Assembly: GCA_964016885.1 (NCBI GenBank)
Contig: OZ024743.1
Coordinates: forward strand, 156,922,001 to 156,986,000
Direction: 5' to 3'
Origin: Eledone cirrhosa
Taxonomy: Eukaryota
Length of the DNA: 64,000 nt
This document shows, in pieces, positions 4,558-54,584 of the stretch. Position 1 is the first letter of the stretch. Every line of letters starts with the position of its first letter. The position numbers and the translations under genes were made by a program. Below the pieces are notes generated by a model, which saw only the letters and a list, made by a program, of their open reading frames with translations, was not told the origin of the DNA and made no database searches.

Positions 4558-7500
4558 TTACAGACACATACTCAGAGAAGGCCCATTCATTCGGGCCATA
4601 CTTGCTTCTCTCACCCATCTTTCAACAAAATGCTGGGAAGAGAGCACTTCCCTCTCTACCCTGATTTTCCTTTTCAAATGAAATTTGAAAAAGTTAATCA
4701 GGGCATCACCGAAGAGGTAAGTGCTCGTCTTCAGCCCTTTCAAACGTGTCCACCATACTATCTCTTTCGCCATGGCCACCAGACAGATAAAAACTGCCTG
4801 CCCTTCCAGGCTAAAGGAAGGGGGCGGGGCAATCCTCACGATGGACTCAGCTGATAGCTGGATCCGTCCTACACGTGACAGCAGGTGTTCGACATAAACC
4901 CACAAGTCAGCAATGCTCGGACACTGGACGAGTGCGTGCAGGACGGTTTCGTCGCCCTGCGCGCATCTCGGACATGCCCGGCTGACGGCACCTCCATGCC
5001 TGTAGAGTTTATCCCGAACTGGCAAAGCTCCTCGGTAGCACTGCCAGGCCAGGGATTTCTGGAAGTTGTCCATAGGCCCCGGCCCGAAAGTCCTTTCGAA
5101 GAGATTGGCTAGTTGATTCTCGTCGACGCCTAGAGTTTCTCCAAGTACGTCGTCGCTCTTCCCCTCCACTAATCCCCTATAGAACGCCAAGGTGGAGTTT
5201 CCACCGATCACATTGCCCGATTGGTCGAGGGATGTGAGCGCCTGAAAACATTCCAGTCTCCAAGCGCTCCATCTCGGTCTTCGCTTGAACCAGGACTGCA
5301 GCTCCGTCAAGGAGACGAGCTGGGGAAAAACGTATCTTGCAAACGGCGACCACACCTGATCACCGTCGAGGAAGAGGTGGAGATGTCGTAGCCTGAGCGC
5401 GTGTCTGCGCATCATCAGCCACGGCATGCCCAGCCCTCCACGTAGCGGGTGTTGACAGCAGATGGACCGCCTGACCATCGGAGCGCGTCCCTTCCACAAG
5501 AAGCGAAAGAGCAAACGCTCCAGCGCAGTCAGGCGGGGCTTAGGACAAGGTATGACGGTCAGGCGGTAGTAGATGACGGATGCGATGTACGCATTCGCCA
5601 CCTCCGCTCGACCTTTCAGGGATAGCTTCCTCTCGGCCCATTTCTGGGTGAGAGAAGCCACCCTGCTCGGCACCTCGTCCCAGTTTTTGTCCGTCTGGAG
5701 GTCTGGACCGAACCAGACCCCTAGCAATTTAACCGGTCCGTCCGTCCAGCGCCCGACGACGCTGTTGGACGGCATGGACCTGCCTCTCCAGGTGCCGAGC
5801 TGCAGGCCCACTGACTTTTCCTGGTTGATCATTGCTCCTGTCACCGCTTCGTATTCTGTTAGTGTAGTGCCGATCGCCTCGATGTGTTTGGCGTTCGACA
5901 CCACTACGGTGACATCGTCGGCATATGCTGACACGGATCTTCCGCATCCTAGTTCGCGCGGGACCCCCCTCAACGTCTCCAGTTTGTGCAGTAATGGCTC
6001 GAGAGTCAATACGTACAATAGGGACGAGAGGGGACATCCTTGGCGGACCGAGCGCATGATGTTGAACTGTTCCGAAAGGTGACCGTTCACTCTCACTACA
6101 GAGAAGATGTCGCTGTGCATGGCAGCGATCCAGCCTCTGAAGACGGGCCCAAAGCCAGCCGCCCTCAGCACTGCCGTTAGGTAACGATGGTCGACCCTAT
6201 CGAAGGCTTTCGACTGATCTAAATTGATCAAAGACCCACCCGTGCCAGGTTCCCTAGCTACCCTCTCTACGATGTATCGCATGAGGTGGAGGTTGTCGTG
6301 GATGGATCTGTCGGGAATGGCGCATGTCTGTGCCTCTCCCACCAGACCACCAACGGCAAGCGCCAACAACTTTGCTAGCACCTTGGCCAAAATCTTGAAC
6401 TCTGTGTTTAGCAGAGTTATGGGCCTAAAATTATCTATGTTATCCCCCTTGTTCGGATCCTTTCTCAGCAGCGCCACCGCTCCTCGGCTCACAGAGCTGG
6501 GAATTCTCCCGTTCTGTTGCCAGTTGCAGTAGACGTCCGCCAAGAGGCCTCCGAACAAGTTTGGCATGTGTACGTAAAGTTCATAGGGCAGACCATCCAA
6601 ACCAGGCGATTTACCCCTTATGGAACTAGTCATTGCATCCCGTACTTCAGCGGTTGTTATCGTCTTTTTGCAACACTCCGCCTCAGTGGCCGAAAGTCGC
6701 GGCAGTCCGTCGAGGTAGACACTAAAGTCCATCCCTCGATCCGGCCCGCCACTGCCCCCGAACAGTTGAGCGAAGTGTCGCTGAAAAGCTTCACACATTT
6801 GCCCGGGATCGAGTAGCATGCGCCCGTCGTGGTCCACCAAAGACCGGATCGTGGCTTCGTTGCCACGACGCGCCTCCGCCACTCGGGCCCATTGAACGGC
6901 TTTCGTCCCCTCGTGTCTGAGAGCACGCACCCTAGCTCTGACAACGCAGCCTTCGTGCTTTGCATTGAAGAATTGGTCAAGGGCCAATTTCGCCGCAAGC
7001 ACGTCGGTCGCGATGCCTTTGCTAAGCGCCTCATCTAATTTTCTAACTAGTTCTCCCTCTGCTCTATTTTTCTCTATTGCTAAAGTCTTACTAAACCTAA
7101 TGGACTCTATTCTAATTGCTCTTTTCAGAGCAAACCACCACTTGTTGTTGACGATGGCCCCCGTCAGCGCCCGCTTAACTAGTTCGCTAATCCGGTCTCT
7201 GTAGTCCTTGCGCGCTGGTAAGGACGCGTTTAGCTTCCAGTAGCCGGGTCCTCGCCTATGAAGCCTATCTAAGTCAAGCACACAGATCACGAATTTGCGG
7301 TCCGTGTAGCTGACTATCTTGAATTGTGGACAGCCTATGCTAGACTTATCTATTTGCCTACAAAATACTCTATCTAGATATGATCTGGATGACCCTATGC
7401 GATTTGTCCAAGTCCACATTGGTACATTCGGGAAATCCATTCGGTACCTGTCAGACAGTTCAAAACGTCTGAGAAGGTTGGTGAGACTCTTGCACCCTCC

Positions 7501-7974
7501 TTCCCTATCCACTAATCCCACACAATCCCAGCGTGCATCTAAGATCCCGTTCCAGTCGCCCACTAACACTAAAGAGCGGGACGTTCCAAGAAAGGTCTCC
7601 AGACGCCGGAAGAAATCAGGCCGCCCTGCTCCTGTCGGGGCATAGACAGCTAACCTGAAAGCTTGCCCGTCTCCGCTGGTCACGTCCAGCACCACCAACT
7701 TACCTTCTGGGTCCAGGAAGATGGCCCGTATGGCAAGATCCAAACCTCTCCGAAAAAGCACAGCAACTCCTCCCCCCGATCCCGGACGGCTGGGAGATGC
7801 GTACACATCGTAGCCGCCGAAGATCGGTGCGAAAGCCTGTGCTTCGGAGATTCTGGTCTCGCTGATGGCCACTACATCTATGTTTAGTGACCTGAGGTCG
7901 TTGAGCAGGTGGCCCTGCTTTCATGACGACCCCAAGCCACGCGCATTTATGCTGCCTATTCTGAGTGAGGTCAT
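4558..7974 (-). CDS. Tx1 ORF2: AP endonuclease, reverse transcriptase and C-terminal Cys/His finger; one premature TGA at codon 18
   Basis: ATG at 7974 gives MTSLRIGSINARGL, in frame with the 1104-aa ORF. Motifs AISET, GDWN, SYLDR, KSPGLDG, RPITLLN, LDQSKAFD, QGCPLS, YADD and CPRC..ETVLHALVQC. The TGA at 7921-7923 corresponds to TGG (W) in the copy near 51370. Confidence 0.92.
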
Positions 7975-11433: not shown

Positions 11434-14400
11434 CCCCGTGACCAAGAAATACCGGGATGGCGGCCGGCGGGGAATAGCCATGTCTCTAGGGGAGAACGGC
11501 CCCTCTAGTCTTGGTTGACACTCGTTCTAGAAGTGGTAACACGAAAAGATTACCCCTTGGCGGATAAGGATAAAACGCGACAAAATAAAGTAGATGTCTA
11601 ATGATGAAATCTCATACCGGATCGGCCGTCACCCGGGTAAAAAAGGGCCGCGTCCCTCAGAGAGGAACCAGACTGGGGTCGAAAAATCAGCTAATGGTTC
11701 AAACCTTCCCATCACTTCGGAGCTGGAGACCTCCCATAACCGGAATACTCCTACTGTTGGCCCTCCATGCTCACCACCAAGAAATCCAAAGAAAAAGAGA
11801 GAAAAATGGTCAAGGGAAGATAATAAAGAAGTCCTTGAGGCTTTCTACACTGCCATGTACTACCCATCAAATACATCGAATACAGAGCAAACATATATCA
11901 ACTGGAAAAGAAACATCCCGAAAACAGAGGCTATATTGACAGTAACAAACTAGCCAATATACGAAGAAATATTGTAAGAAAAAAGTTACTAACTGATATA
12001 GAAATTGATCAGATCAAGCTAGTAGCACAAAGTCAGCGAAGGGAAAATGAAGCATGTGTCAGTGAAAACGAGGTAAACTGTAACACTTCGAATCCCAGAG
12101 TTGGGGCGGAATCACTGGCAACAGAACAAATTAAAGAAAGGAGCGAAAAAGTGGAGGGAGTGCATGCTCAGGATGAAACTCCAAATGAAAATAATGAGAT
12201 CGTAAATGATAAAGAAATGAATGAGAATGAACTTGCCAACTTGAAGGATGAAATTATGATCGAATGGATGAAAATGAAAGAATCTGACATGGGGGAACGA
12301 GACACCCTCCCTAAGATCCAGAACTCCAAACAGAACCAAAAGATAATACACAAGACTAACATAATTCTCAAAAACATTATCATCACAAACAAACTAAGCA
12401 TTACTGACTTAAATCATCTCTATTATGCATCGGCTAAAGTCACCACTCACTTATGTGGAGTGAAGATGAAAAAACAAAGGAATTCCCACAAGAAATCTAC
12501 TTGGCAAGATAACATCAATCGCCAAATAAACCTTCTCCGATCTGACATAGAAATTTTAACAAACTATAAAGTAGGTGAACATGTTAAACAAACTAAACTT
12601 AGAAAATTGAAAAAAAAGTACAGTATAAGATCAACATGTGACATAGACATGCTGATAGAAACAATCAAGCAAAAAGTGTCGGCCAAAGCTGCTCGTATAA
12701 GGCGCTTTGAAAAACGATCTAGATTCTATAAGGACAATAATATGTTCAAAAACAACCAAAGAAACTTCTACAGAAAAATTGGTAAGTCAACAATAACTGC
12801 TAAATCAATACCACCCAAGGAGGAAGTGCAAGAATTCTGGGAAAAGATCTGGGCCGAAGAAAAAGTTCATAACATACATGCCCCATGGATAGACAGACAA
12901 ATGAAAGAAACAGCTCACCTTGAAGAACAAACATGGGAAAATATAACAGTTGAACAGCTGCGCTTGGCTCTAAGAAAAACCAGCAAATGGAAATCCCCAG
13001 GAAAAGACAAAATACAAAACTTTTGGATAAATGCCTTCACAGAGTCTCATGAGCTGTTAGCCCAACTTTACAATGAAATAGTTAAGGAGCCAGAAAAGAT
13101 ACCATCATGGCTAGTTAACGGCATTACATTCCTGCTACCGAAGAATGATGAGACAAACAATCCCAAAAATTACAGACCGATAACCTGCTTGACCACAATG
13201 TATAAAATGTTAACATCAATTCTAACTGAATACACATATGACCACCTGATAACAAATGACCTATTTCCCATTGAGCAGAAAGGGTGTAAACGAGGCTCAT
13301 ATGGCTGTAAGGATCAGCTTCTGGTTAACAAAATGATACTGGAAGATTGTCATAATAGACACAAAAATCTATCGATTGCTTGGATAGATTATAAAAAAGC
13401 ATTTGATAGTTTGCCACACAGTTGGATTGAAAAATGTTTAGAGATTTTCAAAATATCCCCCGTTATCAGGAGGTTTTTGTCATTCAGTATGAGGACATGG
13501 AGAACGACACTCCTTTTGAATAGTGAAACAAAATCACTGGAAGCTGGAGAAGTTAACATTAATTGTGGAATTTTTCAGGGTGACTCTTTATCACCGCTTT
13601 TATTCTGCATCGCACTTATACCATTAAGTAAAATGCTCAATGAAACAAAACATGGATATAGAGTCTATGACAAAACCATTAATCACCTGTTCTACATGGA
13701 TGACCTGAAACTATTTGCAAAAAATGATGAACAATTGCAAGGGCTATTATCCACTGTGAAGCAGTTCAGTGATGACATTAAAATGGAGTTTGGACTGGAT
13801 AAATGCGCCAAAGCAACGTTCACCAGAGGAAAGCTGCTGAAGAGTTCAGACATTAATCTTGATCGGGGGAACGTGATAAGAGAGCTTGATCAAGAACAAA
13901 CTTACAAATATCTAGGTGTTTGTGAAGGAGACGGAATCAAGCACTCGACAATGAGGGAAAGGATAAGGAAGGAATGTTACCGCAGAGTCAGAGCAATCTT
14001 AAGAACGGAATTGAATGCAAGGAATAGGATCGATGCCATAAACACGCTTGCCATACCAGTAGTAACCTACAGTTACAATGTCATTAACTGGTCAAGCACA
14101 GAGATCCGTAGGCTCGATACAAAAATCCGAAAATTCTTAACCATGCACAGAATGCATCACCCTAAGGCAGACATAGATAGAATATATCTCCCTAGGAAAG
14201 AAGGAGGACGTGGGTTAATCCAGTTAGACATTGCGTTGAAAACTGCAACAATTGGATTATCCACATATCTAAGGGAATCACATGATTGGATGATCAAACT
14301 CGTTTTGAAACACGAAAGCACCAAAAGATCATATTCCATTACAAAAGATGCACAAAGATACAGTAATGGACTACAAATTTCAGAAGTCCCATTTACTGCT

Positions 14401-15410
14401 GAAATGGAAAACACAGAAAAAGCAAAGCAGGTAAAAGTAACTGCAAAGAAAGAACTGCTACAGAAACTGGCTAAGAAATGGCAAGAAAAGCCTCTGTATG
14501 GAAAATACCCAGAGCGAGCTAACAATCCTGATGTTGACAAAACTTTAACCCATCAGTGGTTGGCATCCTCTGGACTGAAATCGGAGACTGAAGGACTGAT
14601 TATATCCGCACAAGATCAGTGTCTGCCAACAAAAAATTACCAAGCCAACATAATAAAAAATGGGTGCAGCCCATTATGCCGTGTATGCAAAAAACAACCA
14701 GAGACCATTGACCATATAATTTCAATGTGCAGTCCTATAGCTCCAACCGAATACCTAAACAGGCATGACAGAGCTGCACAATACATACATTGGATAATGT
14801 GCAAGCATTTTGACCTGCCCCATCAAAAGAATTGGTGGGAGCATCAACCACCTCCCATACTTGAAAAAGATCACATCTCAATCTTGTGGAACTTTAGCAT
14901 CCAAACAGACCGAAAAATAGATGCAAATAGACCTGATATAATATTGAAGGACTTTCAAAGGAGGGTATGCCTGCTAATTGATATGTCTGTTCCAATAGAC
15001 AAGAATGTATCTATAAAAACATTTGAAAAATTGAGCAAGTATAAGGACCTGGAGATAGAAATTGGAAAAATGTGGAAATTGAGAACTAAAACAATACCAG
15101 TGGTTGTAGGCGCTCTGGGAATGATACCTAAGGGGTCTAACGACTACTTATCGCAAGTCCCAGGAAACCCGCGTATAGGAGAAATACAAAAGATAGTACT
15201 AATGGGAACTGCCCATATACTAAGGAAGATCCTGTCAATATAAGTACATCACAAGTCTAAACACTAAGGATGCATGTGTGAATATGTGTGTTCTTTCTTG
15301 AACATGGCGGACCTTGTTGTCTCTTGAGGTCACTGGTTGTGACTTGGTGATAACTCGTATAAACATAAAGCAAGATAAATGCAAATAATAATAATAATAA
15401 TAATAATATT
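11434..15410 (+). mobile_element. Near full-length R4/Dong-type (REL endonuclease) non-LTR retrotransposon
   Basis: Single long ORF, structured 5'UTR, short 3'UTR and (AAT)n tail at about 15384-15410. Confidence 0.9.
11594..15243 (+). CDS. R4/Dong ORF: RT, CCHC finger and restriction-like endonuclease; one frameshift near 11905-11915
   Basis: KWSREDNKEV N-terminal block, then LANIRRNI in the frame of the 1030-aa ORF. Motifs KSPGKD, YRPITCL, WIDYKKAFD, GIFQGDSLSP, FYMDD, CRVC..ETIDHIISMC, RHD, RPDII..D..P and K..KY. Confidence 0.9.
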
Positions 15411-17825: not shown

Positions 17826-18938
17826 ACGGACCTGCCCCTTGTATAGGAGCAAATTTTGGAATAGAATAGAAAGAACTAGGAACAAGGCCAATAGAATAAA
17901 CTCATGGTATGATAGCAATAAATACCAGAGTGTAATGTTCATCAATACAACCCCTAGAGGCGAACTAGCCTACAAATTTAGAAGGGCCCTAAATAAACAT
18001 AAACTCAATATTAAGATAGTAGAAAGACCAGGTACCTCCGTAAAAACACTTATTAGCAAGACATACCCGTTCCAAAGACCCTCATGTATAGATAATAATG
18101 TATAACCTGTAAAATAAGCCCCCATATTAACTGTAAAACTAGAAATGTAGTGTATAGCATAAGATGTACTGAAGGACAATGTAGAAACAAAAATATAGTG
18201 TACATAGGTGAGACAGCTCGTAGTATAGGGGAACGAATAAATGAACACTGGCGAGACCTTCAAGATTATAAAGAATCATCTGTACTCTACCAACATGCTA
18301 AGATAGAACACAAGGGTAAATTAGAGAACATAGAAATAAAAATAGAATCCACACACAGAAAAGATGCAATGTTTAGGCAAATTACAGAGGCAGAAAGCAT
18401 AAAAGAATTACAACCAAAATTAAATAGAAAATATGAGTGGAACAGCAACATCACAACTTACAATTAAGGACAAAATGAAAACACACACACACATAGAACA
18501 AACAACCAACCAACAACATGTAAATAAATAAACAAATAGATAAATGAACACAAACACACACAGGCACCCGGATGTGGCGCATGCGCAAACTGAGCACACA
18601 ACACACACACAGAAACAAAATGGCGTAGGACAGAAGAAAGAAAAGGCACAGAAACAAAGAAAGGAATCCCCAGTCACTGAAGAGGTCACAGAGTGTGTGA
18701 CGAAAGGACTATGACTATATATAAACAACTATCTGGTTGTGGAACCAACCAACCAACCAGAAATGTATAAGTTTGTAGATTTGTAAATTTATAAATGTAT
18801 AAATATATAATAACTTGAAGTGAAAGCAACTGGTGCGTGTGTTTCTTATTGGCAACATGACCCTCCCAAAGTATAACAATATCGCTTTCAACACACGATT
18901 TCAGATAAAGAATCTTGCTAAACAAATTCAAAAACGAA
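17826..18938 (+). mobile_element. Penelope-like element family A, 3' part (GIY-YIG and pseudo-LTR)
   Basis: NVVYSIRC...VYIGETARSIGERINEH...EAESI. Homologous to 44328-45480. Confidence 0.85.
18672..18716 (+). ncRNA. Type I hammerhead ribozyme (PLE family A)
   Basis: agtca-CTGAAGA-g-gtcaca(gagtg)tgtgac-GAAA-ggac-TA-tgact; stems I and II pair perfectly. Confidence 0.8.
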
Positions 18939-19270
18939 ATATATATACGTATATATATACATATATATATATATTAAAATAACATATTAAAGTTTAAGCA
19001 AATCTTCTGAATTAATAACACCGATTACGCGGGCCATCTCGGAACCGAATAATTTCTCTAGTATTTCTTTGTTTTTACCGTATTTCCTTTTATTGATTAA
19101 CTAATTATGAGATTCAGAAGATCCTGTTAAGGGTGAAAGCAGCGATTCTTTACTTTAATCTGTTATTTTAATAAATATTTGCTCTACGGTTTTTATACAT
19201 ATGTATATATTTATATATATAATATCCTTATCGAGCCCTCTTCGCGGATTTTAGTCTTCGCTATTATTAT

Positions 19271-26134: not shown

Positions 26135-26287
26135 ATACACTCTTTCTAACACCCTCTTTCTAACAACCCCACACACACTCTGGTATATATATATATTTTT
26201 ATTTTTATTTTTATATATGCAGCATATATAAATATATATATATACAATATATTAACAAATGGAAACTATATTTATAAAACCATATTT

Positions 26288-26350
26288 ATTTCATTATACA
26301 TATTTCAAGGACACCAAAGCAAATTATGGTGCGCTTTCATCAGATAAAAT
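26288..26350 (-). ncRNA. Type I hammerhead ribozyme (PLE family B)
   Basis: Reverse complement of 31319-31381. Confidence 0.7.
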
Positions 26351-28059
26351 ATAATATAGATCAGTTTTATAAACAAATATTGACATACCCTTGAAGAATA
26401 CGACGATTTCGGTTGGAAGCTCCCGGATAGTGGGGTTACTAATTATATTATTGGTCTATTATGCAAATTAGTGTCGGAGAGGTTTAAATCCGTACATTTA
26501 AATTAAGCCGTTGGAATAAGGAAAAGGAAAAAGAAAAAGAAAAAGAAAGAGAAAAAGAAAAAGAAAAAGAAAAAGAAAAAGAAAAAGAAAAAGAAAAAGA
26601 AAAGCAAACCCAAAGAAGGAAAACAAAAGAAAGAGAAAGAGAGAAAACCCTAAGTGAGAGAGGGTTGTATTAAAGTAATTTATGAGATGATGAAGCTAAA
26701 AAATAAATATTTAGTGGATCAATTACGCGGAGTAAATAAAGCGTGGATAAATAAATAAATAATAATAACCGGAGAATTTTATCTAATGTTTAAATTTGAT
26801 TAAATGTTTAATTTATCAATTAAATTATTGAGATCTATAAATTAAAAATTGAGATCTATATATTATTAAAAGAATATATATATATACTATTAAAACATAT
26901 TATTAAAATATATGTTATTATTAAATAACCATATATAAATTTATTATTAATCATCAACGAACAATTAATTATTAATTTTTCAATTAATTATCAATAACAA
27001 TTATTATAAATAATAAAAAAATTATAAGAAATAATAAAAAATAAAAAATGTTTATGTTTAAAATATATGATTAAAATATAGGAATGTTTGTAAACCGTTG
27101 GAAATTCAGAGATTTTACCGAAGAAAAATATCTTCTTAGTTATAGCAATACAGCGTCAAGGAAATTAATTGATTTATTTGTAATTTAGAAAGCTCTAAGG
27201 ATTAAATGTTATAAAGGTTAAGATGATAAATAAAGTTAAGATTATAAGAAAACGTTTTATTATTTTATAGTAAATTATAATTTTATAAATGTTATATATT
27301 TTATAAATCCACCTATTATACAGTTGTGACTGTTAAAATATAAATTTGTTTACTATAACGTCTTAATGTTTAAAGTTTGTCATAAGAATATATCTAAAGC
27401 ATAAACCATAACAAACCTTTTATATGAGTTCATTCATAGAATGTATTCAAATTATACATTTCGATACATTTCGATACACAGACATACATACATGTATACA
27501 TATACATAGACATACACATATATACACAGATATATATATATATATATACATACATACATATACACACATATATATACATATATACATATATATATATAAA
27601 TACAAAATACATAATATAAAATAAAATATGAGTTATAATTTTAAAAAGGATTATAATTTTAAAAGGAATTACAATTTTAAAAAATATAATTATATAATTT
27701 TAAAAGGAATTATATGTTTAAGCAATACAATTTTTTAAGCAATATAATTTTAAAAATATATATAAGAATATATAGAAAAAACACAGTATAAAATATGAAT
27801 TATAATTTTTTATATCCATGAGAGGAATTAACAAAAAATACTTTTTTTTAGAAACTTTCAGTATGTTTATCTTAATTTTTTATACCCTTTTTAAAATACT
27901 TTCAATATGTTTATCTAGAAGAATTTTCAAGGAAAAATGTTTAAGGAAAAATGTTTTCTTCATTCAAGAGAGCTTTTGGCAGTCGTATGAAGGAATCTAA
28001 TGATTTATCGATAGGTTTAATAAGATCAGTTATATATTACATTTTAAACTTATATTTAA

Positions 28060-29912
28060 ACGTTGAATTTAATCTATGTTTGCCGCAACTGAAAAGATTG
28101 TTCCTTAAATTCACAGAATTTTTGCTTTTTAATATAAAGAATATTTCCTCTATACAAAGAGCACAATTTTCTGAAGAAGCATTAAATGGGGGAACTTTGG
28201 AGATAATATTCCAAAGTAAAGAATAGTTAATGTTCTTTGATTTTAGGTCCCATAGTAAGCTAGATAGAGAAGTTGAAGATTTTTTATTTATATTAGTAAA
28301 AGGTCATTTATGGTTATTAAAACGAGATTTAAATCTGTGGAAGTAGAACCTACATAATTAAATGAATTTAAATTAGTTTTTACATTACAATTATATACTA
28401 TATTTTTAGCTAAACAATTGTTATTTAACGGACAGTTAGATTTATTTCTACAGTTACATTTATCAAAATTCAAGTTACTAGGAGCCGTATTATTAAATTG
28501 GATATTGCTGGGGTTGTTAATGGTATTCTGGTTAGATTTTAAGTTTCTATTATTAATTCTATTAATATTCTGTATTTTATAGTATGTCTATTAAATATTG
28601 AGTAATATCTGTGTGTTATAGGGAAGCATTTGTCCAGAGCTTTAAAGAATAGATAGCAATATCAGTTTTAATATTTAATGAGAAAGGAGGAGCGAACCAT
28701 AATATATTCCTAGTTCTATTTCTTTTTTTGTTCTTCGAATTATTGTAAGCTTTTCTATTATAATTGTCAAAATTATTGTTAGTTGTTATATTTTTATTAT
28801 CACTCTATTTAATTGTATTACTATATCCAGCTCTACCTAACGCTTCGTTGTAATACTGTGCTTTATCATCAAAAATATTCTTATTAGCTGACATCCTAGA
28901 AATGCGTTGCTGTACAGAATTTACTATAGTATTTTTAACGGATCTGGGGTGATTGGAGTTAAAATTAACGTAGTTTAAGTTCTCGTTTAATTTGTTAAAT
29001 GGATAATGAAGACATTGTGTTAAGGTTTAAGGTTACATCTAGAAAGTTAACTATTTTATAATTATTCTCTATTTCTACTTTAAGATTAAGGTAATTAAAA
29101 AATTGTATAATTTCTTTTCTTTTCCTATTTAATTCACAGTTATTATTTTCGATAAGTAATAGCATATCGCCGCGATATAAACCTCCGGTCATCTCCGGTA
29201 TTTTTCTATGTAGAGTATTATTTATAAAAAGCCCCACAAGATCCGTTATTTGGGTGGAATCAGATGACCCTATAGTGATATCGAAATTATTATATCTATC
29301 TCCTCTAGTCCAGAGGTGGTTGTTAAATTTAATTAACGTTTTCCGTGCTGTTAGGATAATGTGCATTTCATTACTAGTTAAGTCTGTATGTTTAAATGCA
29401 TATCTCAGTGCTTTATTAAGTAGATTACGAGTGATGGATGAGTAATAATTAGCAATATCCAATTGAATAAACTTATTATTATAATTAAATTTAATGTCTT
29501 TAAACCATTCGATAACTTCGTTACTTCCTTTCCATAATTTTAAATAAGATAATTCCTTAATTTGTGGTATTATTCTGTCTAAAATGTTCTTGCTAAGTAT
29601 GCCAAGGTCCGATTTAGATGGTGCAGTTAATCTAACTGGTAAGTCAATTTCAAAGTTCCTTTTGTGGTCCTTCATATTAATTTTTGGTTTCCTCGGCATG
29701 AAGGATTGTATCCTATTTTCAATGCCTAATTCCTGCATTATATAAGAAGCGTCTGTATTCAATTTTTCAAGATCGTCATTAGTTGTTATTTTGTATTTCT
29801 TCCTTAAATCCTTTAATATTAGATCGTTATAAATATCCTTTTGCATTCCATAAAGATTATTGGTTTTATCAGACTTGACTAGAATTTTTTCCGTTTTTTT
29901 CCAAGTTTTCAA
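28060..29912 (-). pseudogene. PLE RT and GIY-YIG ORF, frameshifted
   Basis: KSDKT, QLDIANYYSSI, ITIGSSDS, LYRGD (degenerate YRDD), FLDVTL, then CNCR..CPL..C..NIVY..YVGST and C-terminal CALCIEE. Confidence 0.85.
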
Positions 29913-30150
29913 TATTATTTTTGAGATATTTTAGGTAATCCTGGCCTATGAAGTTGTTTTTTTTAAATATAATGCTAGGAATGATAGAGGTGATTTCATT
30001 TTCAAAATCCATTAGTAGTTTGCTGGAATTAATTGAAAAACTAATAATTAATTGTTGATTGATGATTAATAATAAATTTATATATGGTTATCTAATAATA
30101 ACATATATTTTAATAATACTTTTTAATAGTATATATATATATTATTAAAA

Positions 30151-30191
<41 letters not shown>

Positions 30192-30430
30192 TACTACTAC
30201 TATCTCTATATATATATACTACTACTATCTCTAATCCTTCTATAGATTTAGAAAAATAACCAATAATATATTCTATAAAAAATGTCAAAACAACAGATGG
30301 GAATCTAATTACTCACTGCCACCAAGAATTCTCACTGCTATCGCAAAACCACTCCTTCAACTATTCTTCTAACAACTTCACCCCTCCCTCCTAATATTCT
30401 CTATAAAAACTAAATAGGTCCTCAGTAATA

Positions 30431-30550
30431 TTATTCTGATGAAATGACAGTAAATAATAACATTGACATATTGAATGTCTGCATAACTAAAAGTTTGTAG
30501 ATAGTAGCTGTTTTAGGTTATGTAACTGTTATAGAAACACGTGTCAATAA
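30431..30550 (+). ncRNA. Type I hammerhead ribozyme with extended stem II
   Basis: ttatt-CTGATGA-a-atgacagt...actgttat-a-GAAA-cacgtg-TC-aataa; palindrome ACACGTGT and GUC site. Confidence 0.75.
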
Positions 30551-31318
30551 ATTCCTTTCAACTAAACTGTATCCATTCAAATCTTTCTATATATATATAT
30601 ATGTATATATATATTCTTTTAATAATATATAGGTCTCAATTTTTAATTTATAGATGTCAATAATTTAATTGATAAATTAAATATTTAATCAAATTTAAAT
30701 AGTAGATAAAATTCTCTGGTTATTGTTATTTATTTATTTATCCACGCTTTATTTACTCCGCGTAATTCATCCACTATATATTTATTTTTTCGCTTCATCA
30801 GCTCATAAATTACGTTAATACAACACTCTCTCACTTAGAGTTTTCTCTCTTTCTCTTTTTTTGTTTTCCTTCTTTGGGGTTGTTATTTCTTTTTATTTTT
30901 ATTTTATTTTTATTTTTATTTTTATTTTTATTTTTATTTTTATTTTTATTTTTATTTTTATTTTAATTTTAATTTTAATTTTTATTTTTATTTTTATTTT
31001 TATTTTTATTTTTATTTTTATTTTTATTTTTATTTTTATTTTTATTTTTATTTTTATTTTTACTTTTATTTTTATTTTTATTTTTATTTTTATTTTTATT
31101 TTTATTTTTATTTTTATTTTTATTTTTATTTTTATTTTTCTGTTTACCATATTCCAACGGCTTAATTTAAATGTACGGGATTTAAACCTCTCCAACACTA
31201 ATTTGCATAATAGACCAATAATAAAATTAGTAACTCCACTATCCGGGAGCTTCCAACCGACATTGTCGCATTCTTTAAGGGTATGTCAATATTTGTTTAT
31301 AAAACTTATATATATTAT

Positions 31319-31381
31319 ATTTTATCTGATGAAAGCGCACCATAATTTGCTTTGGTGTCCTTGAAATATGTATAATGAAAT
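31319..31381 (+). ncRNA. Type I hammerhead ribozyme (PLE family B)
   Basis: attttat-CTGATGA-aagcgcacca(..)tggtgtcctt-GAAA-tatgta-TA-atgaaat; 7-bp stem I with one G-U. Confidence 0.75.
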
Positions 31382-31512
31382 AAATATGGTTTTATAAATA
31401 TAGTTTCCATTTGGTAATATATTGTATTTTTACTCCAATAATTTGTTGAGTGCTTTATATCAGTTATAAAAATGTTTGCTTGTTGTATCACAACAAATTA
31501 AATATAACTTCT

Positions 31513-32930
<1,418 letters not shown>

Positions 32931-33216: not shown

Positions 33217-33843
33217 ATATATATATGTATTGTGATTATACTGTGATTTCTGTAGCATAACATATTTTTGTAACTCCTGCTTTTCTATATGATGTCACTA
33301 ATGCTGTTAATAGTTATGTACTTATATAAATGTTCTGAAGACAAGGATATTAATCACCCGTTTAAACATTGTGTATGCTACGATGAATCCAGACATTCGT
33401 CTGGAAGAAACAATTGTCAACAATTAAATTTGACTGTTTTATATTATATATATATATATATACATGTGTGTGTGGGGGGGGGGGGGGGTGCATGCATGCA
33501 TATATACAATATTAAGCGATAAAGGTTTTTTTACATGTATTTTGGTTTCTATTGCGTATCGATCAGTTACACTCGTTGCGCAGAGGATTGACTCAAGGTC
33601 ACCGATCGAAGTTATGGACCCGACTCCAGTATCTAGCTTCTTTTAAGACTCGTGATTCAACAAAAATGCGTTGTGAGCGATGAGATATTGGGTATTAATA
33701 AAACATCGGCCCTATATATTTCCGTGGTTGTATGTGTATGTAAGTGTTTCCGTGCATAGACAGGCCTACCCGTGTATATATATACCATCAACCCATGTCG
33801 ATTCCATTTGGATTGCCTCGGAAACAACCTTATTATGTAACAA

Positions 33844-33917
33844 GCTGTCTGATGATGACACGACACTCGCACACAGAACAGTGTGGCCAGTGTCGTCATT
33901 GAAATATATATCACAGC
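33844..33917 (+). ncRNA. Type I hammerhead ribozyme
   Basis: gctgt-CTGATGA-..acgacact(..)agtgtcgt..-GAAA-tatata-TC-acagc. Confidence 0.8.
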
Positions 33918-33980
33918 ATTGTTATTAAAGGACTTGAACATCTGAAACTACTTCGCTATTCCTTATTCTATATATATAAC

Positions 33981-34673
33981 CTGTAGTATAATAATTAGTA
34001 TACTTCAATCTGGCTAAATTTTTCTTTTGCAATATATATACAGATGTGTTGGTATCTGTGTTTCATCACATACATATTAGTTTATACACGGCTCAGTGGG
34101 TATTTTCCTCCTTCGTGCTAATTCCATTGTAAAAGAATTCATTACCTTATTAATTTAACTGCTCCTAGTTTGAGCTGCAAGCCGCCTCATATATACGACT
34201 GTTATTTCTAGCAGTACGGTTATGAGACTAGTTAGATACTGTAAAACCATGTGCGTCACGCAGTCTTTTAAATTATTTAGAAGTGAAGCATATCAATTTG
34301 TCCCTGGATGTTTACTGAGGAGAGCAGGACATGATATTCCTACTCTTATTTAACTCGAAACATATTTGGATTTTAAAGTTTAAACTTATCTACGGAACAG
34401 GTTTGATTTTGAAATTTAAATGTGTCTAAACATCATAGGCCCTTGGCAATACAGTTCGTCTTTGTTGATTTATTATTTTAAATCGATATGGACAAACTGT
34501 AGTATAATAATTAGTATACTTCAATCTGGCTAAATTTTTCTTTTGCAATATCTATACAGATGTGTTGGTATCTGTGTTTCATCACATACATATTAGTTTA
34601 TACACGGCTCAGTGGGTATTTTCCTCCTTCGAGCTAATTCCATTGTAAAAGAATTCATTACCTTATTAATTTA
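33981..34673 (+). mobile_element. Terminally redundant non-coding element (516-nt period, 177-bp direct repeats), retrozyme-like
   Basis: 33981-34157 is repeated at 34497-34673. Central HHR. TA-rich flanks. Confidence 0.7.
34307..34434 (+). ncRNA. Type I hammerhead ribozyme with long stem III
   Basis: gatgttta-CTGAGGA-gag...ctc-GAAA-catatttggattttaaag...ttttgaaatttaaatgtg-TC-taaacatc; perfect 8-bp stem I and GUC site. Confidence 0.85.
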
Positions 34674-35344
34674 TATATATATATATATATATAAAGAGAT
34701 TTATGTACATATATGTATGCATGTATGTATGTTTATATATTTGTGCCTGTGTATTTTTATGGGTGTTTATATATGCCTGTGTGTACGTTAATAGGTATGG
34801 TGTGTGAGGATATGAACAGTGAAGTAAGCAACCGCAATCAGATGTTGTCAGATAAAAGTAGTTCAAAACCTGATATGAGACCATGACCACTAGATCGGGA
34901 GCTGTGGAATTAAGTACTGTATAGAATATGTATCACAAAATCAATTGACAAATCTTTCAAAACTATTTTCACCCCAAGTCCATTATCACATTCTTCATAT
35001 ACCCCTTCGCCTTCTTCTACTGCCACTACCATCTTTTCCATTCTATTTCCATCCTACTAATTCCCTTTCTCAATTAACCCCCACCATGACTCTTCCTTAA
35101 TTTGAACTGTCTTTACTATTAACTGTTTTGTTTTTGTCTGACGCACCCGTGAGAAACAGGTGGTACTCCAGAGTAACAAGTGTCAATAATTAGCCTTAAT
35201 ATGATGAATATATACATATGCATACACACACACACATACACAGACATACACATATATATGTGTGTATGTGTGTGTCGGTGTGTGTGTGTGTGTATATGTG
35301 TGTGTGTATATGTGCGTGTGTGTATCGGTGTGTTTGTGTATGTA

Positions 35345-39372: not shown

Positions 39373-39456
<84 letters not shown>

Positions 39457-39760
39457 CGTAAAACAAGAAAATTATAAAATTAACTTACTAAAATATCACT
39501 TCCAACTAATTAGTTTCTGGAATGGAATAAATATATTTTCCGAAGAAGTTACAGGCCGCAGTCTTATTAGCAAACCACTTTCCACTGATTGACCTCGATG
39601 TCACGTGATTGATCCTTTTTGAATTTGCCACCGACGCAGAGACAGTGATTTTCTCAATGGCTAGGAATTCAGTCCACGCTTTGCTATTTCCTATCCACTG
39701 AATTATTTTTTAATAAGTTTCCAGTGTCCACGCTTTGCCTGGCTACTTAGATGAGAATAG

Positions 39761-39842
39761 ACTTCCCTGACGACGGAATGCTTCTCCGTATCTTCTTCGG
39801 AAAATATATTTATTCCATTCCAGAAACTAATTAGTTGGAAGT
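39761..39842 (+). ncRNA. Type I hammerhead ribozyme (R1)
   Basis: acttcc-CTGACGA-c-ggaatg...cattcc-a-GAAA-ctaattag-TT-ggaagt. Confidence 0.8.
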
Positions 39843-40282
39843 GATATTTTAGTAAGTAAGTTAATTTTATAATTTTCTTATTTTACGTCTCTCATATTAT
39901 TGTTCTGCAACCCCATGCATTGAACCACAACGTTACTAAGACAAAACCTATATATTTGCTAGCATTGATATGCATCTGTATGTATATATATGTTACTAGA
40001 TATTAATTCTTTATAATTATCTCCAAATTATTTGTCGAGCAATATTGGCCATGACTGCTGCTATGGTAGCAGGCAGGCCGCAGTCTTATTAGCAAACCAC
40101 TTTCCACTGATTGACCTCGATGTCACGTGATTGATTCTTTTTGAATTTGCCACCGACGCAGAGGCTGTGATTTTCTCAATGGCTAGGAATTCAGTCCACG
40201 CTTTGCTATTTCCTATCCACTGAATTATTTTTTAATAAGTTTCCAGTGTCCACGCTTTGCCTGGATACTTAGATGAGAATAG

Positions 40283-40364
40283 ACTTCCCTGACGACGGAA
40301 TGCTTCTCTGTATCTTCTTCGGAAAATATATTAATTCCATTCCAGAAACTAATTAGTTGGAAGT
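40283..40364 (+). ncRNA. Type I hammerhead ribozyme (R1, second tandem copy)
   Basis: Same motif exactly 522 nt downstream. Confidence 0.8.
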
Positions 40365-40530
40365 GATATTTTGGTAAGTAAGTTAATTTTATAATTTTCT
40401 TATTTTACGTCTCTCATATTATTGTTCTGCAGCCCCATGCATTGAACCACAAAGTTACTAAGACAAAACCTATATATTTGCTAGCATTGATATGCATCTG
40501 TATGTATATATATGTTACTAGATATTAATT

Positions 40531-40577
<47 letters not shown>

Positions 40578-40739: not shown

Positions 40740-42138
40740 CATGCACACATATATATATATATATATGTGCGTATGGGTTTACCGAACATGTATTATAATG
40801 TTCGGTTTGTTTGTAAACAAACAACCTGAATTATTAGCCGTAGTGTTCGGCAACCATCATTGACCTTTTGTTCAACACTGACAAAGTGACGATGAACTAG
40901 TTTCAATCTTATTAGCTATCATCACCATCGTATACTTTCCTGTCAGATGATTGAATGTTTGAAAGTATATACTTTCCTTATGCATATTAACGGCTGAGCA
41001 GCCAAATTTGTAGATCGAGTGAGGTAATCGTCTGGGCGTACAGGAAACGATAAATCGAAAAGAATGAAACGAAGTTTCATTTCTCACTATTAGTACGGCT
41101 GATACTTAAATATATACGTACGGGTTTAACGAACATTTATTATATTGTTCGGTTTGTTTGAGGATAAACAGCCCGAATTACGCCGTACAATGTTCGGCAA
41201 CCATCGTTGCCCTTTTGTTCGATAAACCCATACGTACATATATATATGTACGTAAACGCATACGTACATGTATTTAAGTATCAGCCGTACAAAGAGTCAG
41301 AAATGAAATTTCGTTTCATTCTTTTCCATTTATCGTTTTCTGAACGACTGGCCGAATAACTCACTCGATATTCAAATTAGGCTGCTCATCCGTTAATATG
41401 CATAAGGAAAGTATATACTTTCAAACGTTCAATCATCTGACAGGAAGGTATACGATGCTGACGATAGCTAATAAGCTTTAAACTAGTTCATCGTTGCTTT
41501 GGCAGTGTTGAACAAAAGGGCAACGATGTTTGCCGAACAATGTACGGTGTAATTCGGGCTGTTTGTTTACAAACAAACCGAAAATTATAATAAATGTTCA
41601 GTAAACCCATACATAAATATATATATATATGTGTGCATGTATGTATATATACACATACTACTGTACGTCTGTATACATATATGTATGTGCGTATACATAC
41701 TTACATTTAAGTATCAGCCGTACTAAGAGAAATTAAATTTCGTTTTATTCTTTTCCATTTATAGTTTTCGGTACGCCCGACCGACTAACTCACTCGATAT
41801 GCAAATTAGGCTGCTCAGCCGTTAATATGCATAACGAAAGCATATACTTTCAAACGTTCAATCATCTGACAGGAAGGTATACGATGCTGACGATAGCTAA
41901 TAAGCTTGAAACTAGTTCATCGTTCTTTTGTCAATGTTGAACAAAAGGGCAACGATGGTTGCCGAACACTGTACGGCGTAATTCGCGCTGTTTGTTTACA
42001 AACATACCGAACATTATAATAAATGTTCGGTAAACCCATACGTACATATATATATATATATATGTGTGTGTGTGCATGTATGGCTATATACACATACTAT
42101 TGTACGTCTGTATACATATATGTATGTACGTATACATA

Positions 42139-42141
<3 letters not shown>
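40578..42141. mobile_element. Inverted plus tandem array of about 429-nt HHR-containing units (retrozyme-like family R2)
   Basis: Minus-oriented block 40578-41222 and plus-oriented units 41226-42141. HHR positions 40889-40931(-), 41452-41494(+) and 41881-41923(+). Confidence 0.8.
41881..41923 (+). ncRNA. Minimal type I hammerhead ribozyme (R2)
   Basis: acgatg-CTGACGA-t-agct(aata)agct-t-GAAA-ctag-TT-catcgt. Confidence 0.85.
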
Positions 42142-42224
<83 letters not shown>

Positions 42225-43943: not shown

Positions 43944-44144
43944 TATATATATATATATATATATAAATGTGTGTGCGTGTATATATATATATATATATAT
44001 ATACGTGTGTGTGTGTATGTAGAAGGTGCGTAGTATTGTAGAACAATAAAACTATGCATATAGAGATAAGTAGTACTCAACAGTTGGTAGAACTGGATTA
44101 TATATTAAAGAAGAGATTAAAAGATGGTTAAAAAAGTTCCATAT

Positions 44145-44212
44145 ATTTTATTATGCGCATTTCGAAAACAACATCATCCTGGGACAAAAATTATGTTCTC
44201 ATCAGATAAAAT
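44145..44212 (-). ncRNA. Type I hammerhead ribozyme
   Basis: attttat-CTGATGA-gaacat...atgttgttttc-GAAA-tgcgca-TA-ataaaat; 7-bp stem I and palindrome ATGCGCAT. Confidence 0.8.
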
Positions 44213-44327
44213 AAGGTAACATTATATGAGGCCTAAAAACACTTGTCAATGATGTTGTTTTCACAATATATGGAACTTTTTTAACCATCTTTTAATTTCT
44301 TCTATTATATATATATATATATATATA

Positions 44328-45920
44328 TTTCGTTTCTGAATTTGTTTAGCAAGATTCTTTATCTGAAAACGTGTGTTGAAACCGATATTGTTATACTTTG
44401 GGAGGGTCATGTTGCCAATAAGAAACACACGCACCAATAGCTTTCACTTCAATTTATTATAATAAATTTATAAGTTTTCGGTTGGTTGGTTGGTTCCACA
44501 ACCAGATGGTTTTTTATATATTGTCAAAGTTCTTTCGTCACACATTCTGTGACCTCTTCAGTGACTGGGGGTTCTTTTCTTTGTTTTTTGTGCCTCTCCT
44601 TTGTTCTGTCCTAAGCCATCTTGTTTTTGTGTGTGCGTTGTGTGCTTAGTTTGCGCATGTCTTACATTCGGGTGTCTGTGTGTGTTTATATTCGTTTATT
44701 TATTTGTTTATTTACATGTTACTGGTTGGTTGTTTGTTCTATGTGCGTGCGTGTTTTCATTTTGTCCTTAATTGTAGGTTGTGATGTTTCTGTTCCACTC
44801 ATGTTTTCTATTTAATTTTGGTTGTAATTCATTTATGTTTATTGCCTCTGTGATTTGTCTAATCATTGCGTCTTTTCTGTGTGTAGATTCTATTTTGATT
44901 TATATGTTCTCTAATTTACCCTTATGTTCTATGTTAGCATGTTGGTAGAGTACAGATGATTCTTTACTATCTTGAAGGTCTCGCCAGTGTTCATTTATCC
45001 GTTCCCCTATACTACGAGCTGTCTCACCTATGTACACTATATTTTTTTCTCTACATTGTCCTTCAGTACATCTTATGCTATATACTACATTTATAGTTTT
45101 ACAGTTAATATGGGGGCTTAATTTACAGATTATACATTTCTTATCTATACAGGGAGGTTTTTGAAAAGGGTATGTCTTGCTAATAAGTGTTTTTGTGGAG
45201 GTACCTGGTCTTTCTACTATCTTAATATTGAGTTTATGTTTATCTAGGGCCCTTCTAAATTTGTAAGCTAATTCACCTCTAGGGGTTGTATCGATGAACA
45301 TTACACTCCGGTATTTATTGTTATCATACCATGAGTTTATTCTATTAACCTTATTCCTAGTTCTTTCTATTCTATTCCAAAATTTTCTCCTATACAAGGG
45401 GCAGGTCCCATTTGTGTCATTATTTACCATTTTTTCCCATTTGGTTCTGGCTCCTCTATACACTCTGATTTTATCTCCTGACTGGAATTAGAGAAAAACA
45501 CAATGGAAAGCATCCAGCAAATAGATAACTCCATCCACCAGAGTATTAGAGTTACTATAGACTACCCAAGCAAACACCCCAACCATCGATTACCTGTACT
45601 AGACACAGAGCTCTGGTTAGATACCATTAATAACAAAAAACAAATCCTCCATTCCCATTATGCCAAACCCATGACTTCCAAATATCTGATCCACCGAAAC
45701 TCAGCTGTTTCGGACCATACCGAAATCAACATACTGATTGCGGATTTGGTACGGGTGATGAGAAACGTGTCCCGCATGTGCAACCCCGAAGAAATAGAGA
45801 GACACATACAGCACTTCATACACCGTATGCAGTTCTCTGGTTAAGATCAGAGAGATAAAAGCAGAGTGTATAGAGGAGCCAGAACCAAATGGGAAAAAAT
45901 GGTAAATCATGACACAAATG
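44328..45920 (-). mobile_element. PLE family A copy with an inverted 5' segment
   Basis: GIY-YIG ORF 44900..45463(-), pseudo-LTR 44328-44800, and RT-thumb segment 45490-45920 on the plus strand (LPVLDTELW..HYAKPM). Confidence 0.85.
44523..44565 (-). ncRNA. Type I hammerhead ribozyme (PLE family A)
   Basis: gtca-CTGAAGA-g-gtcaca(gaatg)tgtgac-GAAA-gaac-TT-tgac. Confidence 0.75.
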
Positions 45921-52469: not shown

Positions 52470-52585
<116 letters not shown>

Positions 52586-52715
52586 CAAAAGTTCTATTTA
52601 AATTGTTGGGATACAACAAGCAAATATTTTTATAACTGATATAAAGCACTCGACAAATATTTGGAGTAGATATACGATATTAATAAATGGAAACTATATT
52701 TATAAAACCATATTT

Positions 52716-52778
52716 ATTTCATTATATATATTTCAAGGATACCAAGTTACATTATGGTATGCCTTCATCAGACAAAAT
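52716..52778 (-). ncRNA. Type I hammerhead ribozyme (family B variant)
   Basis: Reverse complement of 54395-54457. Confidence 0.7.
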
Positions 52779-54394
52779 ACAATATATAACAGTTTTATAA
52801 ATAGACATTGACGTACCCTTTTAAAAATTGACCGTTGCTTTTGGAGGCCATTAGGATAGTGGTTTGTTTACTTTAGTAAGTCATAGTGTTAAGAGTAAGT
52901 AAAAAGATGGAGAGAGAGAGAGAGAAACGTGGAGAAAAGAAAGGGAGAGATAGATAAAGAAAAAGAAGAAAGCAAAAAGAAAAGAGAACAGAGGAAAAAT
53001 AACGGGGAGATATCAAACCATCAGACAGAGAAAAAATCCAGAGAGAGATATATAGAGATAGAGAGAGGGGGGAGAGAACGAAAACCTTAAGTTATGTCAT
53101 ATTAATTATGATTAGATATTTAGTTTAAAAATTGAGATCAATATATTAAAAATTGGAATTTAAACATTATAAAATATATATATTGCTAGAGAGATTATCT
53201 ATCGTATATTACATACACATAGGCAAAGGTACATAAATATATATATATACACACTCACTCAGAAAATACACATTATATCTACTCCCGCATATAATATACA
53301 CATACAAAGCATAAGTGTTTTTTTATTTATTGCTATACATTCCTTGTGTTATTAATTAAAAATTAAAAATGTTTAGTATATATATATAAATATATAGGAT
53401 TAACTTTCATGCATTTATGGCTGTTAAGTTATGCATATCTGCAATCAAAAACTGCATGGGTAAGCCTGTACATTCACATCCATAATTCTTAGTTATACAT
53501 GAATAGATATGTGTGTGCATTTTCAATTGATATACACGCGTCACTCATGCATATATACAGACAGACATATAATCATAAAAAAGCATATAACACATGTATA
53601 TGTATGTCAACACACACATATAGATACATAAGCCGTACATAGACATACGTATACATCAATATATAACATAGTACAATTGAGTATATAAAATACAAAAGGA
53701 TTATATTTTGGACATATAATTATATCAATATAACTTAAAAGGCAAACGAATTCTACAAATATCAAAATACTAAAATAACCCAAAATATTATATAATATTT
53801 TAAGTTAAAATAATATGTTTAATATATTTAGTATAGAAATTTATCTTACGTATATTTTAATCAAGATATTGAAAGAACAAACTTTTGAAAATTATGAGAA
53901 GCTATCAGAATAAAAAATAAATCTAATAAAAATTATGAGAAGCTATCAGAATAAAAACAAATATAATAAAAAATAAAAAATAAAATGAATCTAATAAAAA
54001 AAATAAAATAAAATGAATCTAATAAAAAATAAAATATTATATCAATATAACTTAAAAACAAGAATTCTACAGATATTAAAAAGTTTAAAAATAAAAAAAT
54101 AAAAAAATAAAAAAAATGTTTTTTTAAATTTTAAAAACTCTTAAAATATTATAGAATATTTTAAGCTAAAATAATATGTTTAGTATAGAAATTTATCTTA
54201 CGTATATTTTATTAAAGATATTTATCTATCTCTCCCTTTCTTTTCTCCACGTTTCTCTCTCTCCATCTTTTTACTTACTCTTAACACTATGACTTACTAA
54301 AGTAAACAACCCACTATCCTGATGACCTCCAAAAGCAACGGTCAATTTTTAAAGGGGTACGTCAATGTCTATTTATAAAACTGTTATATATTGT

Positions 54395-54457
54395 ATTTTG
54401 TCTGATGAAGGCATACCATAATGTAACTTGGTATCCTTGAAATATATATAATGAAAT
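54395..54457 (+). ncRNA. Type I hammerhead ribozyme (family B variant)
   Basis: attttgt-CTGATGA-aggcatacca(..)tggtatcctt-GAAA-tatata-TA-atgaaat. Confidence 0.75.
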
Positions 54458-54497
54458 AAATATGGTTTTATAAATATAGTTTCCAATTATTAATATC

Positions 54498-54584
<87 letters not shown>

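What the first reader, a model, noticed from the sequence alone, without database searches (positions are those of the whole stretch)
33981..34673. 1.3-mer element with a canonical GUC hammerhead: possible footprint of a circular RNA template
Seen: 177-bp direct repeats with a 516-nt period. The HHR lies in the unique middle, with an 8-bp stem I and a stem III of about 19 bp or more, rich in G-U pairs. Unlike the others it should fold as a monomer. Inference: terminal redundancy around an intact cleavage site is what reverse transcription running more than once round a 516-nt circle would leave.
Basis: partly seen in the sequence, partly recalled or inferred. Interest (0 to 1): 0.75.

Follow-up and report, generated by a model that had tools for sequence, protein, structure and literature searches.

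The report
Penelope-copied hammerhead ribozyme repeat
This is one of several hundred recent copies of a 516-base non-coding repeat with a predicted self-cutting RNA, and its two fixed ends in (TA)n microsatellites show it was likely pasted in by a Penelope-type jumping-gene enzyme, probably by copying round a small RNA circle.

Summary
In detail: 177-bp direct repeats, period 516, around a complete type I hammerhead (GUC, cut after 34426). It is one copy of a young non-coding family (615 exact hits of a 28-mer; 134 insertions mapped), a metazoan non-LTR retrozyme. The copies are not circular permutations. Their 3' ends sit at two fixed sites about 70 nt apart (125 of 134) and abut (TA)n; 5' ends vary. 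In 67 of 68 two-armed inverted copies with both ends at such a site, each arm uses a different one. This is the Penelope-like (PLE) 'tail' signature. Both sites are followed by a CTC..GAG hairpin also found after both ends of a Hydra-clade PLE in this genome, the likely partner. Arms run through the cleavage junction without scars, and rare variants recur across turns (19 against 0.3 expected), which favours a circular template (about 60%). An uncleaved multimer with local duplications is not excluded. No RNA data were available. The scan has reported the same kind of element on other DNA of this genome.

The parts
33981..34673 (+). One-armed insertion of the 516-nt retrozyme family, 1.34 monomers, one hammerhead (monomer position 1 = 33983)
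33981..34157 (+). 5' direct repeat (second turn of the same monomer region)
34497..34673 (+). 3' direct repeat; ends at RT start site 175
34307..34434 (+). Type I hammerhead: stem I 8 bp, core CUGAGGA (34315) and GAAA (34357), long stem II insert, stem III 21 bp with 6 G-U pairs
34424..34426 (+). GUC triplet; predicted cleavage after 34426 (monomer 444/445)
   Evidence: cleavage inferred from the canonical hammerhead core
34450..34501 (+). Long hairpin just 3' of the cleavage site
34603..34673 (+). PLE-type tail: the 71 nt between the two family-wide end sites, monomer 104 (34602, also 34086) and 175 (34673, also 34157)
34608..34633 (+). CTC..GAG hairpin after end site 104 (the copy in the 5' repeat, 34092-34117, has lost the A of GAG at 34116)
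34162..34174 (+). CTC..GAG hairpin after end site 175; same CTGCTCCT..GAGC as after the second end of the Hydra-clade PLE
33969..33978 (.). (TA)5, left half of the target microsatellite
34674..34693 (.). (TA)10, right half of the target microsatellite
33790..33968 (+). Neighbour, not part of the element: 3' fragment of a different high-copy hammerhead family (core at 33849, short palindromic stem III) that ends at the same (TA)n

Best explanation
It is a non-coding, hammerhead-bearing retroelement (non-LTR retrozyme) whose copies end at two fixed sites beside (TA)n and were likely written in by a Hydra-clade Penelope-like RT/GIY-YIG protein, probably copying a 516-nt circular RNA. Steps: (1) inferred: an array with two or more hammerheads is transcribed and self-cleaves after GUC to a 516-nt monomer, which is ligated to a circle (host RtcB-type ligase, as shown in vitro for other retrozymes, PMC7229834). 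(2) inferred: the PLE protein binds a CTC..GAG hairpin present twice in the RNA and cuts (TA)n on both strands. (3) shown at DNA level: copying starts at two internal sites 70 nt apart, one per DNA end, runs a variable distance through the cleavage junction, and the two cDNAs are joined head to head or one is joined directly to the target. (4) The window copy is a one-armed product: start at 175, 1.34 turns. With one hammerhead it cannot excise a monomer itself, so it is a footprint rather than a source. Odds by step: retrozyme 0.95, PLE machinery 0.9, Hydra clade 0.7, circular template 0.6.
For: Family: 615 exact hits, control 0; full monomers mostly 96-98% identical; longest ATG ORF 43 aa. 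Ends: 125 of 134 right ends at 100-107 or 160-176; 67 of 68 two-armed copies with both ends at a site use one of each; AT run at 120 of 134 right ends and 75 of 85 left ends of two-armed copies. This matches PLE tail and inverted structures (PMC8557442) and two internal RT starts with both strands extended (PMC11167929). Partner: L101-type ORFs have Hydra motifs (DKT, CxCx5C, C-terminal GIY-YIG), insert in (TA)n, have two ends about 90 nt apart, each followed by CTC..GAG, as are both of ours (110 of 121 and 69 of 78 units); background 1.9% of window positions; absent after both Neptune-like ends. Continuous template: 78 of 147 non-length-selected arms cross the cleavage site, 34 exceed a monomer; 0 stops at 440-452; 166 of 177 junctions identical, no small indel. 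One monomer per insertion: within-insertion divergence median 1.3% against 3.9% between (57 insertions); 214 of 232 subfamily variants in all copies of the insertion; 19 rare variants shared across turns, 0.3 expected. Constraint: 0 of 40 core, stem I and hairpin sites carry subfamily changes against 35 of 450 elsewhere, p 0.045 one-sided.
Against: Cleavage and circles are not shown for this family. 8 of 9 Xenopus retrozyme dimers did not cleave in vitro (bioRxiv 2026.07.22.740005) and uncleaved RNA was the main PLE substrate in vitro. Local DNA duplication also makes shared variants: L173 is such a duplication and supplies 2 of the 19; L013, L015 and L090 are mosaic (8 variants); L192 has a variant in both arms in register but not in the next turn, and L021 a crossed pattern, neither fitting one monomeric circle. 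Only 4 rare variants are shared by both arms and across turns. Arms stop in excess at 453-470, just 3' of the cut (11 stops, 10.4 against 2.9 per 1000 nt, p 2e-4 uncorrected, 14 windows), which could mean some cleaved linear templates. The hairpin motif is short, its length limits were set after seeing these sequences, and no long homology to a PLE was seen in the visible part. The energy model does not favour the canonical stem II base.
Confidence: 0.6

Rival explanations
1. Same PLE machinery and start sites, but the template is an uncleaved linear read-through transcript of a tandem array; arrays are kept long and uniform by local DNA duplication.
For: Uncleaved RNA is the dominant PLE substrate in vitro; intact junctions fit it equally; L173 shows a post-insertion duplication; L013, L015, L090 mosaics and the in-register variant in L192.
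Against: No variant was inherited in a fixed unit position across several insertions (the 87/91 signal was a gap-placement artefact); 214 of 232 subfamily variants are in every copy of an insertion; the ribozyme has a full core, 8-bp stem I and 21-bp stem III and should cut as a monomer; only 22 of 134 insertions have two or more hammerheads in an arm, and linear copying alone can only shorten arrays.
Confidence: 0.28
2. The template is the cleaved linear monomer held shut by stems I and III, and RT jumps the nick.
For: Excess stops at 453-470, just 3' of the cut.
Against: No stop at 440-452 and no small indel in 177 junction crossings; template jumps usually leave scars (recalled from R2 work, not tested).
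Confidence: 0.06
3. The mobiliser is another (TA)n-targeting PLE family (Neptune-like or Poseidon-like; labels from recalled motifs) or an unsampled one.
For: All three PLE groups sampled end at (TA)n and have two ends or long open frames; only 36 PLE loci from 3 queries were examined.
Against: CTC..GAG follows both Hydra ends and neither Neptune-like end; the sequence after the Poseidon-like end could not be read.
Confidence: 0.2
4. TRIM/LTR element with 177-bp LTRs, or a one-off local duplication.
For: This single copy looks like two LTRs around a short interior.
Against: Repeats start CT and end TA, not TG..CA; 5' ends vary, arrays reach 7 hammerheads, 85 of 134 copies have an inverted arm; hundreds of dispersed copies.
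Confidence: 0.01

Closest known systems
Metazoan non-LTR retrozymes (Cervera and de la Pena 2020, PMC7229834: passages and parts 2-4 of 6 read; Li, Clavereau and Pollet 2026, bioRxiv 10.64898/2026.07.22.740005: parts 1-3 of 5 read, supplements closed)
   Same: Non-coding, low-GC (33%) tandem units, each with a type I hammerhead; no LTR, PBS or PPT hallmarks; monomers to multimers; predicted self-paired circle that leaves the ribozyme stems formed; co-occurs with PLEs.
   Different: 516 nt is above the 150-450 nt of the 2020 paper (within the 51-972 nt of the preprint); stem III is 21 bp rather than 1-2 bp; most copies are about one turn long and two-armed. In the parts read, neither paper maps ends, tails or inverted arms, and both leave the mobilising mechanism as a proposal.
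Penelope-like elements, Hydra clade (Craig et al. 2021, PMC8557442: passages and section 11 read)
   Same: 5' truncation, partial tandems, inverted 5' copy, tail at one end only, (TA)n target, hammerhead; shared CTC..GAG hairpin after the end sites in this genome.
   Different: No ORF; tail 70 nt against 30-40 nt in the paper and about 90 nt in the local Hydra family; no long nucleotide homology to the sampled PLEs. The paper describes non-autonomous head-to-tail Chlamys derivatives (MRC1), which share sequence with their partners.
Poseidon PAc mechanism (Frangieh et al. 2024, PMC11167929: parts 1-2 of 4 read)
   Same: Two internal RT start sites bounding the tail, AT-rich target, both strands cut and extended.
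   Different: There the ribozyme is minimal and protein-assisted and uncleaved RNA is used in vitro; here the ribozyme is predicted to work alone.
PLE hammerheads and the circular-template proposal (Cervera and de la Pena 2014, PMC4209133: passages read)
   Same: Proposes ligated circles as template for more-than-unit reverse transcription; large helix III variants that cut as monomers occur in fungal and protist PLEs.
   Different: Animal PLE ribozymes there are minimal and dimer-dependent; no genomic test of the circle is given in the passages read.

Membership tests
Non-LTR retrozyme | Type I hammerhead in each unit | tested here: met
   all 12 core nucleotides intact in 137 of 153 units; Rfam gathering 0 hits
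Non-LTR retrozyme | Short non-coding, low-GC unit in tandem or partial tandem | tested here: met
   516 nt, GC 0.33, longest ATG ORF 43 aa; 22 of 134 insertions with two or more hammerheads in an arm, maximum 7
Non-LTR retrozyme | Dispersed multicopy family without LTR hallmarks | tested here: met
   615 exact hits; no TG..CA
Non-LTR retrozyme | Self-cleavage | not testable with these tools
   predicted from the fold only
Non-LTR retrozyme | Expressed as linear and circular monomer RNA | not testable with these tools
   no RNA holder listed
Non-LTR retrozyme | Active copy has two or more complete hammerheads (Li et al. criterion) | tested here: not met
   the window copy has one; the family has 22 of 134 that qualify
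PLE-mobilised element | Two fixed ends bounding a tail found at one end only | tested here: met
   67 of 68 two-armed copies
PLE-mobilised element | 5' truncation and inverted 5' copy | tested here: met
   85 of 134 have a leading inverted arm; 5' limits spread over the monomer
PLE-mobilised element | (TA)n target | tested here: met
   120 of 134 right ends
Autonomous PLE | RT and GIY-YIG ORF | tested here: not met
   no ORF over 43 aa
Derivative of a Hydra pLTR | Sequence homology to the pLTR of an autonomous family | tested here: inconclusive
   only a short shared hairpin motif; no long match in the visible part (36 loci, output cut)
TRIM / LTR retrozyme | Fixed ends at both sides with TG..CA; type III hammerhead in the LTR | tested here: not met

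The most novel reading that the evidence does not exclude
A Hydra-clade Penelope protein performs twin, internally primed rolling-circle reverse transcription on a ribozyme-made 516-nt circular RNA that carries two mimics of the PLE's own CTC..GAG start hairpin; several unrelated hammerhead RNAs in this genome share only that hairpin, so it is the minimal address that makes any RNA circle a (TA)n-targeted retroelement.
Probability: 0.42. Interest if true: 0.72.

Novelty: new member of a known kind. Interest (0 to 1): 0.5.

Why it matters
How animal retrozymes move has been proposed (PLE enzymes, circular template) but, in the papers read here, not shown. This family gives mapped start sites, a named candidate enzyme with long open frames in the same genome, and a two-hairpin cis signal, so the proposal can be tested in vitro with an existing assay. 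A small RNA address that sends a circular RNA into (TA)n would also be of use for RNA-templated insertion. The kind of element is known, and the scan has already noted several sister families in this genome, so this copy adds a family and independent support rather than a new class.

Tried and rejected
Rfam gathering scan: 0 hits. Expression: no RNA holder listed; three DNA-type or unlabelled contig runs from one study; laying two of them only showed high repeat depth and exposed the upstream repeat. Circular-permutation test: rejected, ends are fixed. A-to-I editing scars (lead from e1-8803865): none, A>G 48 against T>C 52 among rare variants, p 0.42. Apparent position-specific inheritance at 87/91: a 2-nt deletion aligned two ways; analysis redone with clean calls. 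Stop clusters at 26-62, 159-176 and 453-470: cannot be read as circle or linear evidence, because arms join at short palindromes (15 of 86 listed junctions are symmetric, counted by eye). Flank all-versus-all BLAST showed only common repeats, no attached ORF family. Viroid-like relatives: 0 hits of a 26-mer in viral contigs. Pol III B box: none. Pfam did not recognise the PLE RT remnants of the window. Earlier scan notes by sequence and by place: nothing for this family. Rows dropped: 6 loci duplicating arrays L013/L015 and repeat loci of the same insertion; L148 as a segmental duplicate of L147; pieces under 88-90% identity; monomer positions 36-61 (homopolymer and AT tract). Target-site duplications cannot be read inside (TA)n.

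Full report
Observation. The two repeats are 33981-34157 and 34497-34673, 177 bp, period 516, 2 mismatches. Between them lies a type I hammerhead on the + strand: stem I 8 bp, CUGAGGA at 34315, GAAA at 34357, stem III 21 bp with 6 G-U pairs, GUC ending at 34426. It folds far better than shuffles (z -5.7, 0 of 200), and the 516-nt unit folded as a circle has z -4.9 against 40 shuffles with stems I and III formed. The energy model does not form the canonical base of stem II and Rfam has no hit at gathering score. Monomer position 1 below is window 33983; the cut is at 444/445.

Family. The window lies in a 3.0-Gb animal genome (earlier notes call it a cephalopod, not checked). A 28-mer has 615 exact hits, control 0; a hammerhead 26-mer has 183. 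I mapped 134 insertions: 35 chosen by best full-length match (length-biased) and the rest by position or by subfamily and ribozyme patterns. The unit is non-coding (longest ATG ORF 43 aa), 33% GC, and falls into subfamilies with 37 diagnostic sites, none in the 40 core, stem I and hairpin positions against 35 of 450 elsewhere (p 0.045). The nearest sampled relative of the window copy differs by 1.1%.

Ends. Instead 125 of 134 right ends fall at monomer 100-107 (49) or 160-176 (76); 85 insertions have a leading inverted arm, and of the 68 with both outer ends at such a site, 67 use one of each; 120 of 134 right ends and 75 of 85 left ends of two-armed copies abut an AT run. Inner ends vary. The repeats do not carry TG..CA. 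This is the PLE anatomy described in PMC8557442 (partial tandems, inverted 5' copy, tail at one end, (TA)n) and explained in PMC11167929 by two internal RT starts with both target strands cut and extended. The window copy starts at 175, runs 1.34 turns and is joined to (TA)5 with no inverted arm; that (TA)n is also the end of an older, different hammerhead element.

Partner. Three PLE groups with long open frames were sampled, 36 loci. One has the Hydra marks of PMC8557442 section 11: DKT, CxCx5C linker, C-terminal GIY-YIG, (TA)n target. It has two ends about 98 and 188 nt after its hammerhead core. Following a lead from e1-8805697, I found that each Hydra end, and each of our two sites, is followed within 4-10 nt by CTC..GAG; at site 175 and the second Hydra end the match is CTGCTCCT..GAGC. 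The fuller motif is in 110 of 121 and 69 of 78 units, and in 25 of 5000 shuffles once, never twice; the short form follows 1.9% of window positions. It also follows an end of the 522-nt element and of the upstream family, and neither Neptune-like end. The motif is short and its limits were set after the fact; the Poseidon-like continuation could not be read; no long homology to a PLE appeared in the visible output.

Circle or line. A cut linear monomer allows only 176 or 247 nt of cDNA. 78 of 147 non-length-selected arms go beyond, 34 exceed a monomer, 9 cross two cut sites. No arm stops at 440-452; 166 of 177 crossings are identical over 438-452 and none has a small indel. So the template was continuous: ligated or uncleaved. 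For the circle: units of one insertion are closer to each other than to other insertions (median 1.3% against 3.9%, 57 insertions from the first 75); 214 of 232 subfamily variants are in all copies of the insertion, the exceptions being mostly recurrent sites with no fixed register; 19 rare variants are shared across turns where 0.3 are expected, 4 of them by both arms. Against: L173 is a local duplication and gives 2 of the 19; three long arrays are mosaic; L192 and L021 show patterns a single monomeric circle would not give; stops are in excess at 453-470; uncleaved RNA was used in vitro by PAc. An apparent in-register signal at 87/91 was an alignment artefact. No A-to-G excess. No RNA run was listed. 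I put the circle at about 0.6.

Known or new. It meets the sequence-level definition of a metazoan non-LTR retrozyme (PMC7229834; bioRxiv 2026.07.22.740005); cleavage and circular RNA are untested. Those papers propose PLE mobilisation, the second by pLTR homology in Xenopus, and state that the mechanism is open. Four searches returned no title or abstract start that maps tails, twin arms or a shared start hairpin for a retrozyme; most listed papers were seen only as listings, and supplements were not read. My PLE reading was recorded before those notes were opened. Verdict: new member of a known kind, with useful mechanistic evidence; interest 0.5.

Noticed in passing
window 33790-33968 (+): 3' fragment of another high-copy hammerhead family (1086 candidates, best 40 at 97-100%) directly upstream, ending at the same (TA)n; one copy (L201) runs about 74 nt further and shows CTC..GAG after the first end.
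   Followed up: partly
window 39447-40568: 522-nt tandem element with two hammerheads (39767, 40289), an inverted left arm, (AT)n flanks and a TATTAAT..CTC..GAG motif at its end site: a second retrozyme family, here with two ribozymes.
   Followed up: partly
window 26242-31566 and 52533-54558: Two-armed remnants of the Hydra-clade PLE family with minimal hammerheads (26343 -, 31326 +, 52771 -, 54402 +) and an RT fragment at 28995-29930.
   Followed up: partly
window 44290-45487 (-) and 17828-18979: 3' parts of an abundant PLE family (Neptune-like, label recalled) with GIY-YIG, a hammerhead-like core and two ends 58 nt apart; copies with 820-1000 aa open frames exist elsewhere.
   Followed up: partly
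window 44100-44300 (-): Short hammerhead element (core 44205) whose stems are flanked by a long inverted repeat, inserted at the (AT)n after the Neptune-like end.
   Followed up: no
window 41235-42148: Tandem repeat of period about 439 nt, 88% identical, between (TA)n tracts; not examined for a ribozyme beyond the strict scan.
   Followed up: no
window 4558-7920 (-) and 11839-15243 (+): Two long open retrotransposon frames: 1120 aa with endonuclease, RT and zinc domain, and 1134 aa with RT.
   Followed up: no
L173:2421-3373: A 436-nt tandem duplication spanning the inversion junction of an insertion, showing post-insertion local duplication.
   Followed up: yes
L147 and L148: Identical insertion structure and flank about 198 kb apart on C4: segmental duplication or assembly duplicate.
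   Followed up: no
monomer positions 16, 108 and 153 across loci: Recurrent G>T changes in single units of many unrelated insertions; hot spots or sequencing artefact.
   Followed up: no
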